DNA from: a virus
Taxonomy: Duplodnaviria > Heunggongvirae > Uroviricota > Caudoviricetes
IMG/VR virus record: IMGVR_UViG_2671181056_000012
Coordinates: 1 to 17,566 of that record
Length of the DNA stretch: 17,566 bases
Direction: 5' to 3' (one strand)
Each line of letters opens with the position of its first letter. Position 1 is the first letter of the stretch. Position numbers: made by a program. Of the stretch, positions 9,001 through 12,000 are shown piece after piece.

Positions 9001-12000
9001 CCCAATTCAACCAACACAGGAAGAACATCAACAGTAAACTCAAGTTGGTAGTGAGCATTCATGCGGCAGAAAGACAGAGAAGAGTCATTAGCAACATACC
9101 CACACGGCTTGTTATTTTCATCGTAGACGCGCTCAATGTAGCCAGCAGTACGCAAGGCCGTTAGTGCTTCTTTAACCTTCGTAGCGCCCTTTTTAGCGCC
9201 TAACAGACGGGTCATTGAATGGCTATCTACGGATTTGCGAACATGAAGTTCAATCAGCTTTTTATTTTCGCGAGTTTTCTTTAATGCCAGTTCGATCCAG
9301 TCGGTTTCTTCAAAGTCTGCATACGGGTTAACAGCTAAACGTTCCTGACGCAGTTTTTCATTTTCTTCTTTCAGTCGTTTCCATTCCTGAATAACGATCA
9401 TTCGACGCTTAACATCGTAACCAGTGACAAGAGTCAGCGTCATTTCTTCGTCTAAGTGATATACTGGTTCTTTAACAGCATATCCTAAGTTATTGATTCT
9501 CTCGACAAATTCAGTTTTGAGCTGATCGATAATACCTAAAGATTCGTACATTTCGCGAATATCGCGCATTACATTGCTGTGCTTCTTATCGGTAAATTCA
9601 GCGATCTGACGAGAAGACATGGTCAGCGGTTTGGTGTTATCAACAACCAGAGACACGGAAGCAGTTTTAGCAGTATTCATAACGGTAACAGTATTCATAG
9701 TAAGATTCCCCTTAATTAACGGTTTTGCGATTTAATCCTCCGTGTTCCGGCAGCATCACCGGAACATTTTTATTTATGATAGAAATTTATTACCAATCGA
9801 TTTCTACTTGGTCTTCTTCATAATAAGGAATCGCATATTCATAACGCCAGTTTTCGATGATTTCACGTTCTTCATTAGTAAGAAGGTGATTGCTAACTGG
9901 AGTCGCATTGTGATTACCAGCTTCGAATTGCTCGCGAACTTCCAGCATTGCATGAATACCAGTTAAGGACATCAGATCAAACGGAACATGCATACTACGG
10001 GAGATAGTTTCACGGGATACGCCCCAATCATTTTCTACATGGCTAGGGCTTACAGAAACGGTTTTGCCGGAGATTTTAACAGTCCAGTCATACAGGGATT
10101 TAGTGATGGTAAATTCTTTCATGTTACATCCTCTTTACAAATCTAGGTCAAATAGGTTCAAAGTTGTCAAGTGCGATAATCATAAAAAAGTCAGAAAATT
10201 TTGTCAACACACCTTGACAAGACGCCAAAGTGTTGACCTAACTTACAGCATATCTAAGCCTTCATCGTAACCGTAGAAGCCATTCTGAGAAGAGAAACAG
10301 ATTGGTGTGTAGTCGTCGTCATCTTCGTCTTGTTCATCGTGTTCTGGGGCTTCCTGAGCGGGTTGTTTACCATAATCAGCCATAATCTGGTCAAGATCGG
10401 CGATCCCATAGTAAGAGCCTAAATCAACGTCATATTCACGAACATCAAACGGCAGGTCATCACGAACAATAATTGCCGGAATGTTGTTGTATTGTTCACG
10501 ACCTTCATCAGTAAAGCAGTCTACGATCACCGTAGGGCGACCATTACGTTTAAGAGCATAGAAAGCAGTTGAGAAATTGGAGTCTTCGGAATGACGAATG
10601 ATGTTATAACCACGATTAGCGAAAACATGCATCATAGCCAGATTATCATCATGGTTCAGACCCAGAAGAATGAAAGGAGTTTTAGTATTGATCATAGTGG
10701 AAATCCTCTAAAAGAAAGTGAATCAAACAAAGTACACTATTATTTATAACGAGAAATTTTTGTCTAATTTGAAAGGAATTGGTATTCAGTCGGCTTCGCC
10801 TCCTTCATAGATTTTGATTAAATCATCATCAAAACGAAGAAGTATCTTTAGAATATAAGAATCTTTCTTTTGGAGAAATTATAATCAGGAAGCAATTTAG
10901 CAACCGAAGGTTGCAATCCCGAAGGGATACCAATACCTTTCATGATCATTAAAGTGATCTAGAATCATCTAGTAACCAGTTAACTACTATTATCTTCAAA
11001 GTGATTATTACTATCTTTCTAGAATCAGTTAGTAACTAGTTTAAAATCCCTTTCAAGAAAATCCTTTCAGAAGTGATTCTCGATGCCACGCAGTGGCGTC
11101 GCAGACGTTTGAGAGTGAGCGAAGCGAGCGAGCAAACTAGTTAATTCCTTCTAAGACCATCTAGTATCATCTAGTTTAAATTAGTGTTACTAGAAGTAAT
11201 TGGTTAGCGCTTCGCGCAGTCGGGCTACGCCCTCCTAATATCTTTTTGGTTATTTGTTGTTTTTAGTTTTACACATGAGCGTAGCGAATGTGTTATATAA
11301 TATCTATGCACGCCCGATCCCCCGTTTTTGCCCCTCGCTAAGTTAATGTTTTATAAAGAGTTTTTCTCACCAATCCTTTTCGGGGGCAAATTTCAGGGGC
11401 AAAAATTAGATTTTCAGGGGCAATTATTGGCATTTCAGGGGCAAAAATGAGGGGCAAAATCACTGTTTCCCAGAATTTCAGGGGCAAAAATAGTAGGTTT
11501 CAGGGGCAAAAATGGGATAGTGAAATCTAGGGGATTTTGGTTCAGGGGCAAAATTCAGGGGCAATTTTCATAGTGTAGTGCTAGTGTAGGTTTGAAAGTC
11601 CTTTCTTGACACTATGTAGGTTTGGTGCTATACTTGACAATTCGAGAAAAAATGTGGTATAATATTTGTATTGAAAGTGAAAATTTACCGATTTTCCTTC
11701 CTATTGTTATCACCGTGTTAAATTGTTATATGTTTGTGAAGATTTGGATCTGAGAGAAAATCTTGTAACAAATCTTTACAATTCATAGCTCAATTAATGC
11801 TCACCGCTTTAGCAAAAAGTGCTATGCCTTTTTCTAAATTGATTGAATATACATCAATTTGGTTAATTCGTGCTCTCCGCTTTAGCAATTCGTGCTGCGG
11901 TTTAACACATTTAACACTTCTGATAACATCTGAATAACATTTTAACATATCTCTGTTATAAATACATATATAAGAGATAAATGTGAGGGGTTGAAAAATA

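What the first reader, a model, noticed from the sequence alone, without database searches (positions are those of the whole stretch)
10160..10240. Operator-like palindrome overlapping a consensus promoter between two orphan genes
TTGTCAA-N6-TTGACAA (10201-10220) overlaps the -35 of a TTGACA-17-TATGAT promoter driving the 110-aa gene, with extra half-sites nearby. This looks like a repressor-controlled switch, possibly an immunity or anti-defence control point. No repressor gene is obvious in the window.
Basis: seen in the sequence. Interest (0 to 1): 0.45.

Follow-up and report, generated by a model that had tools for sequence, protein, structure and literature searches.

The report
Promoter inside a five-box TTGAC array
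A near-perfect bacterial promoter in an uncharacterised E. coli/Salmonella prophage sits inside five strictly conserved copies of the word TTGAC, which looks like the on/off control region for a small operon carrying an exchangeable small gene and an antirepressor-like gene, though the protein that would bind it is unknown.

Summary
TTGTCAA-N6-TTGACAA lies at 10201-10220 and overlaps the -35 of a minus-strand TTGACA-17-TATGAT promoter. The 20-bp palindrome alone is statistically ordinary. It is one part of a larger, clearly non-random element.

- **Array:** five TTGAC(A/C) hexamers lie in 93 bp. They form two inverted arms, CTTGACAA-N12-TTGACCTA, co-centred on the promoter spacer at 10192.
- **Conservation:** in 41 E. 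coli-type haplotypes the hexamers and the -10 are essentially invariant, while the spacers between them vary. In Salmonella relatives (TerL 57% identical) the palindrome, the -35/-10 and the hexamer at the start site persist.
- **Operon:** the promoter is internal to a leftward operon: 150-aa gene, then a slot holding unrelated small genes in different relatives, then a Rha-family gene.

Best reading (about 0.45): an operator array through which a DNA-binding protein blocks the -35 and the +1 position. The binding protein is unidentified. The prophage has no CI-like repressor, but the window encodes several uncharacterised helix-turn-helix-like modules.

Main rival: an unregulated promoter next to a stable RNA hairpin at the 3' end of the upstream gene. 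That hairpin uses three of the hexamers.

The finding is moderately interesting. It is a new variant of a known kind.

The parts
10243..10695 (-). Upstream 150-aa orphan gene. The last ~44 codons belong to the same conserved ~250-bp block as the control region.
   Evidence: ORF list. No Pfam, PHROG or PDB sequence match. AF2 gives an alpha/beta domain plus a disordered acidic tail, with no significant fold match. Conservation profile.
10203..10238 (-). Transcript-strand hairpin starting a few bases after the 150-aa stop codon: GGUCAAC(A/C)CUUUGGC, loop GUCUU, GUCAAGG(U/G)GU, 2-nt bulge, UUGAC. It uses boxes 1, 2 and 3. No U-tract follows it directly.
   Evidence: RNAfold -19.8 (window) and -22.1 kcal/mol (commonest haplotype), z -3.7 and -4.5. 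Salmonella versions give -17.5 and -14.7, z -3.0 and -2.7. Covariation is not significant.
10233..10240 (+). Box 1: TTGACCTA, the outer arm upstream of the promoter.
   Evidence: Inverted repeat I3. Invariant in 41 haplotypes. Kept in Salmonella type A and lost in type B.
10213..10220 (+). Box 2: CTTGACAA. It is the right arm of the reported palindrome and the inner arm of the nested dyad.
   Evidence: Inverted repeats I4 and I6. The hexamer is invariant. TGTCAA is kept in all Salmonella relatives, even where it lies in a hairpin loop.
10201..10207 (-). Box 3: TTGACAA, the left arm of the palindrome. TTGACA at 10207..10202 is the -35 hexamer.
10179..10184 (-). -10 hexamer TATGAT, preceded by an invariant T-run.
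   Evidence: Invariant in 41 haplotypes. TAGCAT or TAACAT in Salmonella, with a 17-bp spacer counted for the TAGCAT form.
10172..10172 (-). Predicted transcription start: an A, 7 nt after the -10 hexamer. This is inferred, not mapped.
   Evidence: Position rule applied to the sequence.
10164..10171 (-). Box 4: CTTGACAA at about +2 to +9 of the predicted transcript.
   Evidence: Kept in all Salmonella relatives at the same distance from the -35, 36-37 bp.
10144..10151 (-). Box 5: TTGACCTA, exactly 12 bp downstream of box 4.
   Evidence: The 12-bp spacer is completely different in L086 but its length is kept. Box 5 is not kept in Salmonella.
10129..10133 (-). Shine-Dalgarno sequence GAGGA, 6 nt before the ATG at 10122..10120.
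   Evidence: Sequence. The homology break to alternative downstream genes is at about 10126.
9790..10122 (-). 110-aa orphan gene. It occupies a swap slot. Relatives carry unrelated 48-50-aa or 59-aa genes here; Salmonella carries a 57-64-aa gene that resembles the 48-50-aa type in its C-terminal half.
8874..9698 (-). Rha-family (antirepressor-like) gene, co-transcribed with the slot gene. The N-terminal Phage_pRha domain is swapped among relatives. The C-terminal domain is conserved and has a winged-helix-like topology in the AF2 model.
   Evidence: Pfam PF09669, PHROG anti-repressor families. Alignment A1. AF2. No minus-strand terminator between it and the 110-aa gene.
8847..8865 (-). Intrinsic terminator ending the operon.
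   Evidence: 8-bp stem with 6 GC pairs, followed by TTTTTTGTAT.
7876..8740 (+). Two candidate DNA-binding genes; not assigned to the site. The 200-aa protein carries two tandem copies of a ~55-aa helix-turn-helix-like module. The 77-aa protein carries one copy.
   Evidence: Pairwise BLASTP. Weak Pfam HTH hits: HTH_7 for the L001 homologue of the 77-aa protein, WH_Rok faint for the 77-aa protein itself.
12085..12267 (+). 60-aa paralogue of the same helix-turn-helix-like module. Candidate only.
   Evidence: BLASTP to the 77-aa protein, E 2e-8. Pfam HTH_Tnp_1 is weak, below the cut-off.

Best explanation
The palindrome is one visible part of a conserved control region built around a strong sigma-70 promoter. 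The promoter has its -35 at 10207..10202 and its -10 at 10184..10179, and transcription is predicted to start near 10172.

**Operon.** The promoter is internal to a leftward operon: the 150-aa gene, an exchangeable small gene (here 110 aa), a Rha-family antirepressor-like gene, then the terminator at 8865..8847.

**Array.** Five invariant TTGAC(A/C) hexamers surround the promoter.
- Two bipartite arms, CTTGACAA-N12-TTGACCTA, lie in inverted orientation on either side of the core promoter. They share their centre with the promoter spacer.
- The -35 hexamer itself pairs with the inner upstream arm to give the reported palindrome.

**Proposed mechanism.** The hexamers are recognition sites for a sequence-specific DNA-binding protein, probably phage-encoded and multimeric. 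It would occupy the -35 together with box 2, and the start site through box 4. The outer boxes would add cooperativity in the E. coli lineage. Binding would keep the operon off until the protein is removed.

**Shown:** the sequence features, their non-randomness, their selective conservation, and the operon structure.

**Inferred:** promoter activity, protein binding, repression, and the identity of the binder.
For: - **Promoter quality:** 11/12 match with a 17-bp spacer. Such promoters are enriched in the window, 3 against 0.42 expected.
- **Hexamer cluster:** five hexamers in 93 bp, reached in 0 of 1000 shuffles.
- **Nested dyad:** two perfect 8-bp inverted repeats with one common centre at 10192. 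This arrangement is unique in the window and absent from 60 shuffles.
- **Footprint:** in 41 distinct haplotypes, the 36 hexamer and -10 columns carry 1 deviating cell in total. The other 70 intergenic columns average 2.6 per column (Mann-Whitney p 2.6e-9; permutation 0 of 20000).
- **Spacing within the arms:** the N12 length is fixed even where the spacer sequence is completely replaced (L086).
- **Flanking divergence:** the intergenic region stays at 90-96% mean pairwise identity across the relatives, and is nearly unchanged in L086, whose 150-aa protein is only 42% identical. The downstream gene is swapped outright.
- **Deep conservation:** in Salmonella relatives (TerL 57% and the 150-aa protein 39-40% identical), TGTCAA-N7-TTGACAA, a -10 hexamer and TTGACAA at the start site persist at the same relative positions. 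TGTCAA persists even where it lies in a hairpin loop.
- **RNA does not explain boxes 4 and 5:** the leader from the predicted start site is unstructured, with z of +1.1, +1.7, -0.6 and +0.7.
- **Need for control:** the operon ends in a Rha/Ant-like gene. That kind of gene is normally kept silent in lysogens (established knowledge of P22 immI, P1 immI and 186 tum).
Against: - No binding protein is identified.
- The whole 36-kb prophage has no CI/Cro-type repressor by annotation or Pfam.
- The hexamer cluster occurs nowhere else in the prophage. The arm motif occurs nowhere else in IMG/VR outside this family. There is therefore no second operator to compare with.
- The palindrome spacer is 6 or 7 bp in different haplotypes and 7 bp in Salmonella, which a rigid dimer would tolerate poorly.
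- Boxes 1 and 5 are dispensable in Salmonella.
- The hexamer equals the -35 consensus, so box 3 is conserved for promoter reasons anyway.
- Boxes 1-3 and their C/G-rich flanks also form a stable RNA hairpin. That hairpin explains part of the symmetry without any protein.
- The haplotypes are related and recombining, so the conservation statistics overstate independence.
Confidence: 0.45

Rival explanations
1. An unregulated internal promoter sits next to an RNA 3'-end hairpin. The inverted TTGAC copies upstream of the -35 exist because the 150-aa gene's message ends in, or is stabilised or processed at, a long hairpin whose 3' arm happens to contain the -35 of the next promoter. No repressor is involved.
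For: - A stable hairpin lies a few bases after the stop codon in all three lineages, despite different sequences. E. coli gives -19.8 and -22.1 kcal/mol (z -3.7 and -4.5); Salmonella A gives -17.5 (z -3.0); Salmonella B gives -14.7 (z -2.7).
- It contains G-U pairs, which are valid only on the transcript strand.
- Its stem-forming part (CCCTTTGG) is conserved while its loop varies.
- There is one compensatory C-G to A-U change, in the window itself.
Against: - No U-tract follows the stem (AAAAUUUU comes next), so it is not a canonical intrinsic terminator.
- Covariation is not significant: 138 of 500 shuffles reach the observed score.
- In Salmonella type B, TGTCAA sits in the loop yet is conserved.
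- Boxes 4 and 5 lie downstream of the promoter in an unstructured leader. They mirror boxes 2 and 1 with identical 12-bp spacing and a common centre, which this model leaves unexplained.
Confidence: 0.25
2. The block is a conserved module-boundary sequence. The ~250-bp segment 10126-10374 is kept alike because it serves as a homologous-recombination joint for exchanging the downstream cargo. Apart from the promoter it has no regulatory meaning.
For: Homology breaks fall exactly at 10126 and at about 10374 in many genomes. At least three unrelated gene families occupy the slot. The conserved block extends into the coding 3' end of the 150-aa gene.
Against: Recombination would homogenise the whole block. 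It would not leave the spacers variable and six hexamers invariant. The core elements persist in Salmonella phages that share only 57% TerL identity.
Confidence: 0.1
3. The palindrome is a host transcription-factor site, for example a TyrR-box-like TGTAAA-N6-TTTACA or a CRP/FNR-type dyad. Host physiology rather than a phage repressor would control the operon.
For: TGTCAA-N6-TTGACA matches the TyrR consensus recalled from memory with two symmetric mismatches. A second two-mismatch match lies at 10122-10139. Five such matches occur in the window against 1.46 expected.
Against: - The spacer is N7 in Salmonella and in several E. coli haplotypes. This is incompatible with a fixed-spacing box.
- The second match is not kept where the downstream gene is swapped.
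- The half-site orientation is wrong for FNR-type sites.
- There is no LexA box in the intergenic region.
Confidence: 0.05
4. Control is at the RNA level. The repeated words act in the leader or in read-through transcripts, through alternative pairings or sRNA/antisense targeting, to control translation of the slot gene.
For: Boxes 1 and 2 are perfectly complementary to boxes 5 and 4 over 8 nt each. Read-through RNA could therefore form long-range helices.
Against: - The whole region is not more structured than shuffles (z -0.37).
- The leader is unstructured.
- RNAalifold finds only an invariant 6-bp helix with zero covariation.
- There is no Rfam match.
- There is no significant pairing with the putative neighbouring ncRNA: -28.2 against -27.5 +/- 3.9 in shuffles.
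Confidence: 0.05
5. The palindrome next to a promoter-like match is a coincidence.
For: A 7+7 inverted repeat with a short spacer is expected many times per window: 22 observed, 14.4 in shuffles.
Against: The hexamer cluster, the co-centred nested dyads and the selective conservation are all far beyond chance.
Confidence: 0.02

Closest known systems
P22 immI region (Pant promoter with Mnt and Arc operators, arc-ant operon)
   Same: A very strong near-consensus promoter drives a small first gene followed by an antirepressor-type gene. Operator sequences overlap the core promoter. The regulator has a single target locus in the phage.
   Different: There is no divergent mnt-like gene. The small first gene is not conserved (at least three unrelated families), so it cannot be the cognate Arc-like binder of the invariant boxes. 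The operator layout differs: five dispersed hexamers rather than compact 17-21-bp sites. There is no evidence of a sar-like antisense RNA.
acr-aca operons (anti-CRISPR promoters autorepressed by Aca proteins)
   Same: A conserved strong promoter carries inverted repeats over the -35. Small variable cargo genes follow it directly. A conserved gene with DNA-binding-type domains closes the operon.
   Different: The closing gene is Rha-family, not a known Aca family. Its N-terminal Phage_pRha domain is itself swapped while the boxes stay the same. None of the cargo genes matches a known family. Autorepression is untested.
Lambdoid OR/OL-type operators (CI/Cro)
   Same: A dyad-symmetric site overlaps the -35 of an early-type promoter.
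   Different: The site is unique in the genome. There is no CI/Cro gene. Half-site spacing varies by 1 bp. The half-site equals the -35 consensus.
Intrinsic terminator directly abutting the next promoter
   Same: A stable GC-containing hairpin lies a few bases after a stop codon, just upstream of the next promoter.
   Different: No U-tract follows the stem, so termination is doubtful. The hairpin's 3' arm contains the -35 of the next promoter.

Membership tests
Sigma-70 promoter | -35 and -10 hexamers close to TTGACA and TATAAT, with a 16-18-bp spacer. | tested here: met
   TTGACA-17-TATGAT, 11/12. Only 3 such sites in the window against 0.42 in shuffles.
Sigma-70 promoter | Hexamers and spacer length conserved in relatives while the spacer sequence drifts; correct position before a ribosome-binding site and ORF. 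| tested here: met
   41 haplotypes show hexamers invariant except for one cell, a spacer of 16-17 bp and a variable spacer sequence. Salmonella keeps TTGACA with TAGCAT or TAACAT; the spacer counted for the TAGCAT form is 17 bp. GAGGA lies 6 nt before the ATG.
Sigma-70 promoter | A mapped transcription start, or activity in vivo. | not testable with these tools
   No expression data are available.
Palindromic repressor operator (CI/Cro, LacI or TetR style) | A dyad-symmetric site overlapping core promoter elements. | tested here: met
   The palindrome 10201-10220 covers the -35.
Palindromic repressor operator (CI/Cro, LacI or TetR style) | Fixed half-site spacing across relatives. | tested here: not met
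   Spacer of 6 bp in most haplotypes, 7 bp in several E. coli haplotypes and in all Salmonella relatives.
Palindromic repressor operator (CI/Cro, LacI or TetR style) | A cognate repressor gene nearby, and further operators at other promoters. | tested here: not met
   No CI/Cro-type gene in the 36-kb prophage. No other hexamer cluster. The arm motif is absent elsewhere in IMG/VR.
Palindromic repressor operator (CI/Cro, LacI or TetR style) | Demonstrated protein binding and repression. | not testable with these tools
   Needs EMSA, footprinting or reporter assays.
P22 immI-type antirepressor control | A small conserved repressor gene (arc) as the first gene, and a divergent mnt-like gene. | tested here: not met
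   The first gene varies among at least three unrelated families. The upstream gene is co-directional and its product is not DNA-binding-like.
P22 immI-type antirepressor control | A strong promoter reading into an Ant/Rha-type gene. | tested here: met
   PF09669 and PHROG anti-repressor hits. No terminator lies between the slot gene and the Rha gene on the transcribed strand.
LexA-controlled antirepressor (186 tum, Gifsy type) | An SOS box, CTGT-N8-ACAG, at the promoter. | tested here: not met
   No match within the intergenic region 10123-10242. The nearest 1-mismatch matches lie inside the coding sequences.
acr-aca operon | Inverted repeats at a strong promoter, followed by variable small cargo genes. 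| tested here: met
acr-aca operon | The downstream gene belongs to a known Aca family and autorepresses; the cargo is an Acr. | tested here: inconclusive
   The downstream gene is Rha-family. It has a Pfam-matched Phage_pRha domain and a C-terminal domain with winged-helix-like topology in the AF2 model (pLDDT 72.5), but no significant fold match. The cargo genes have no family hits. Function is untested.
Intrinsic (Rho-independent) terminator | A stable GC-containing hairpin just after the gene. | tested here: met
   -14.7 to -22.1 kcal/mol, z -2.7 to -4.5, in three lineages.
Intrinsic (Rho-independent) terminator | A U-tract directly after the stem. | tested here: not met
   The stem is followed by AAAAUUUU. 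The site is not called by the terminator scan.
Moron (promoter-gene-terminator insert) | Its own terminator directly after the cargo gene. | tested here: not met
   The hairpin at 9742-9767 has its T-run only on the + strand. On the transcribed strand it is followed by GGAGGATTAAATC.
TyrR box | TGTAAA-N6-TTTACA with fixed N6 spacing. | tested here: not met
   Two mismatches in the window. N7 in Salmonella and in some E. coli haplotypes. The consensus is recalled from memory.

The most novel reading that the evidence does not exclude
The five-hexamer array is the single operator of a previously undescribed phage regulator that recognises a word identical to the -35 hexamer. One candidate is the 200-aa protein, which has two tandem helix-turn-helix-like modules that would fit the bipartite CTTGACAA-N12-TTGACCTA arms. 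Another is the conserved C-terminal domain of the Rha-family protein, acting as an Aca-like autorepressor. Either would gate a conserved 'cargo slot' in which unrelated small genes, possibly anti-defence or antirepressor helpers, are exchanged among E. coli and Salmonella prophages.
Probability: 0.2. Interest if true: 0.6.

Novelty: new variant of a known kind. Interest (0 to 1): 0.4.

Why it matters
If the array is an operator, it marks the switch controlling an antirepressor-like gene in a prophage family that has no recognisable CI/Cro immunity module. The family occurs in about 1% of complete E. coli genomes (58 of 5426) and in Salmonella. Finding the binding protein would therefore expose how this lineage maintains or leaves lysogeny.

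The conserved promoter cassette, with a gene-swap point exactly at the ribosome-binding site, is also a ready marker for small accessory genes expressed from a strong, probably regulated promoter. Such a place is where anti-defence or superinfection genes tend to sit.

If the rival is right, the finding is an ordinary internal promoter next to an RNA hairpin.

Tried and rejected
- **Known phages:** megablast of the region against INPHARED phages found nothing. The closest TerL is only 43% identical.
- **Relatives in other species:** Genome-contig scans with the 150-aa protein and with the Rha alignment found none.
- **RNA families:** no Rfam match.
- **RNA structure of the whole region:** not significant, z -0.37. 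RNAalifold finds only the invariant palindrome helix, with no covariation. My alternative stem is compatible with 94% of cells but shows no significant covariation.
- **Leader structure:** none.
- **sRNA pairing:** pairing between the putative ncRNA at 11665-12050 and the leader is no better than shuffles.
- **Plus-strand promoters from boxes 1 and 2:** no acceptable -10 by inspection, and none is called.
- **LexA box:** absent.
- **TyrR-like box:** rejected on spacing.
- **IHF, Fur, CRP, FNR, RutR and P2 Ogr (TGT-N12-ACA):** these comparisons were made from memory only. None fitted in orientation, spacing or position.
- **Arm motif elsewhere in IMG/VR:** only this family, plus about 10 scattered single hits inside unrelated coding sequence.
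- **Literature:** a search for the half-site words gave only incidental -35 sequences in oligonucleotide tables. A search on Rha/antirepressor promoters found nothing on this family.
- **Fold searches:** neither the Rha-family model nor the 150-aa model gave a significant PDB match.
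Full report
**Context**

The window is the right-hand part of an E. coli prophage. It has no close relative among deposited phages (best TerL match 43% identity). Relatives occur in 58 of 5426 complete E. coli genomes, in 27 IMG/VR contigs and in Salmonella enterica.

A complete relative (L001 plus L012, about 36 kb, inserted in ycdX) carries the following:
- head, tail and lysis genes;
- a large serine recombinase;
- a helicase and a GIY-YIG nuclease;
- no CI/Cro-type repressor.

In the window the layout is as follows:

| Coordinates | Strand | Feature |
|---|---|---|
| 5883-7790 | - | TerL |
| 7876-8478 | + | 200-aa gene |
| 8507-8740 | + | 77-aa gene |
| 8874-9698 | - | Rha-family gene |
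| 9790-10122 | - | 110-aa gene |
| 10123-10242 | | the intergenic region in question |
| 10243-10695 | - | 150-aa gene |
| ~10700-11790 | | 1.1-kb gene-free stretch |
| 12085-12267 | + | 60-aa gene |
| 12380-13321 | + | 313-aa gene |
| 13983-14465 and 15939-16169 | - | TerS, split by an IS3-family element |
| 16823-17173 | - | truncated hicB |

**The observation**

- TTGTCAA-CACACC-TTGACAA is at 10201-10220.
- The minus-strand promoter TTGACA (10207..10202), 17 bp, TATGAT (10184..10179) is an 11/12 match.
- Only three sites of that quality exist in the window, against 0.42 in shuffles.
- The palindrome alone is not remarkable. The window has 22 perfect 7+7 inverted repeats with short spacers; shuffles give 14.4 +/- 4.5.

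**What is really there**

The region holds five TTGAC(A/C) hexamers, at 10146, 10165, 10202, 10214 and 10233. Shuffles never reach five within 100 bp (0 of 1000).

They form two perfect 8-bp inverted repeats:
- TAGGTCAA (10144-10151) with TTGACCTA (10233-10240);
- TTGTCAAG (10164-10171) with CTTGACAA (10213-10220).

Both are centred on 10192, which is the middle of the promoter spacer. This co-centred arrangement is unique in the window and absent from 60 shuffles.

The element therefore reads, on the transcribed strand:
1. box 1 (GGTCAA), then 12 bp;
2. box 2 (TTGTCAA), then 6 bp;
3. box 3 (TTGACAA, the -35), then 17 bp;
4. the -10 hexamer, then 8 bp;
5. box 4 (TTGACAA, at about +2 to +9), then 12 bp;
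6. box 5 (TTGACC);
7. the Shine-Dalgarno sequence and the ATG.

**Conservation**

Eleven E. coli loci, 27 IMG/VR loci and further contigs give 41 distinct haplotypes.
- The 36 columns of the five hexamers and the -10 carry one deviating cell in all.
- The other 70 intergenic columns average 2.6 deviating haplotypes each (Mann-Whitney p 2.6e-9; 0 of 20000 permutations).
- Variation is concentrated in the palindrome spacer, the promoter spacer and the spacer between boxes 4 and 5.
- In L086 the box 4-5 spacer is entirely different (CGATAACACCAT) but still 12 bp long.
- The palindrome spacer is 6 or 7 bp and the promoter spacer 16 or 17 bp.
- The region is part of a ~250-bp conserved block (10121-10360, mean pairwise identity 0.90-0.96). 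The body of the 150-aa gene is more diverged, at 0.68-0.82.

In Salmonella relatives the proteins are well diverged: TerL 57%, the 150-aa protein 39-40% and Rha 66-68% identical. There, TGTCAA-N7-TTGACAA, a -10 hexamer (TAGCAT or TAACAT) and TTGACAA at the start site are retained at the same relative positions. Box 5 is lost, and box 1 is lost in one of the two subtypes.

Caveat: the haplotypes are related and recombine, so these statistics overstate independence. The hexamers were defined by motif, not by conservation.

**Operon context**

Many genomes lose homology exactly at about 10126, just before the ATG. The slot then holds unrelated genes:
- the 110-aa gene;
- a 48-50-aa basic protein;
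- a 59-aa protein;
- in Salmonella, a 57-64-aa protein that resembles the 48-aa type in its C-terminal half by eye.

No minus-strand terminator separates the slot gene from the Rha-family gene. The operon ends at the terminator at 8865..8847. The Rha-family protein itself has exchangeable N-terminal domains and a conserved C-terminal domain.

**RNA alternative**

On the transcript strand, the sequence that starts a few bases after the 150-aa stop codon folds into a 14-bp bulged hairpin. The hairpin uses boxes 1-3 and the C/G-rich flanks.

| Lineage | Energy (kcal/mol) | z |
|---|---|---|
| Window | -19.8 | -3.7 |
| Commonest E. coli haplotype | -22.1 | -4.5 |
| Salmonella type A | -17.5 | -3.0 |
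| Salmonella type B | -14.7 | -2.7 |

(All values.)

- It has no adjacent U-tract, so it is not a canonical terminator.
- Covariation is weak: one compensatory change, with 138 of 500 shuffles reaching the observed score.
- RNAalifold sees only the invariant palindrome helix.
- The leader from the predicted start is unstructured. Boxes 4 and 5 therefore have no RNA explanation.
- There is no Rfam match and no sRNA pairing.

**Who might bind**

- The cluster is unique in the prophage, and the arm motif is unique to this family in IMG/VR. This points to a single-target regulator, typically encoded nearby.
- The 150-aa protein is an alpha/beta domain with a disordered acidic tail and does not look DNA-binding.
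- The Rha-family model has an N-terminal Pfam-matched Phage_pRha domain whose predicted topology is winged-helix-like, a long coiled coil, and a conserved C-terminal E-H-H-E-E domain. Mean pLDDT is 72.5, and no significant fold match was found.
- The 77-aa and 60-aa proteins are paralogues (E 2e-8).
- The 200-aa protein carries two tandem copies of the same helix-turn-helix-like module. That would suit a bipartite direct-repeat arm, but this is inference only.
- Host-factor ideas (LexA, TyrR and others) failed.

**Verdict**

- The promoter is almost certainly real.
- The palindrome is part of a selected five-box array whose most economical explanation is protein binding over the -35 and the +1 position.
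- A hairpin role for the upstream half is also likely and is not exclusive of protein binding.
- Repression, the identity of the binder and any anti-defence role are untested.

Noticed in passing
window 11326-11566 (and 8858-8869): An iteron-like array: ten copies of TCAGGGGCAAAA (up to 2 mismatches) in the gene-free stretch, with an eleventh inside the Rha-operon terminator hairpin GCCCCTGAAATTCAGGGGC. Shuffles never reach 11. It could be a replication origin, a partition site or a terminase-binding site.
   Followed up: partly
window 11606-11663 and 11665-12050: Two tandem near-perfect plus-strand promoters (TTGACA-17-TATACT and TTGACA-18-TATAAT) are followed by about 415 nt before the 60-aa ORF. 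The first ~40 nt after the -10 are invariant in 15 relatives, and a terminator-like hairpin lies at 12028-12048. This may be an unannotated ncRNA or a long leader. There is no Rfam match.
   Followed up: partly
window 10950-11200: Repeated TCTAGAATCA / TCTAGTAAC..AGTTAACTA words and short GC hairpins (for example gccacgcagtggc at about 11085-11100) lie in the same gene-free stretch.
   Followed up: no
window 13983-14465, 14384-15942, 15939-16169: The small terminase gene appears split by an IS3-family insertion (orfA/orfB at 14384-15942). Its N-terminal fragment and upstream region lie at about 15939-16480. This copy of the prophage is therefore probably packaging-defective.
   Followed up: partly
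window 16823-17173: The ORF resembles E. coli hicB (antitoxin), by recall from memory, but ends in foreign residues (…GKPKCCKPQ). This prophage copy seems to be inserted in hicB, whereas the relative L001 is inserted in ycdX.
   Followed up: no
window 16400-16407 (also 10164, 10213, 11633): The 8-mer CTTGACAA occurs four times, all in non-coding control regions (expected 0.75; 2 of 200 shuffles reach 4). The copy about 250 bp upstream of the terminase small-subunit gene has an A/T-rich upstream tract but no -10 hexamer. It is conserved in E. coli and Salmonella relatives.
   Followed up: partly
window 7876-8478, 8507-8740, 12085-12267: A family of small helix-turn-helix-like modules: the 60-aa and 77-aa proteins are paralogues, and the 200-aa protein holds two tandem copies. 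Pfam gives only weak HTH_Tnp_1 and WH_Rok hints for these, and HTH_7 for the L001 homologue of the 77-aa protein.
   Followed up: partly
window 8874-9698 and homologues in L002-L006: The Rha-family protein is modular. At least three different N-terminal domains are joined to one conserved coiled coil and C-terminal domain.
   Followed up: partly
window 10243-10374: The acidic, aromatic C-terminal tail of the 150-aa protein (…DDDDYTPICFSSQNGFYGYDEGLDML) is the best-conserved part of that protein and is predicted to be disordered. It may be a protein-binding or DNA-mimic tail.
   Followed up: partly
window 997-1087: ARAGORN calls a 91-nt tRNA-Gln (anticodon ttg) on the plus strand, inside a region covered by a minus-strand 142-aa ORF. 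The length is unusual and it may be a false positive.
   Followed up: no
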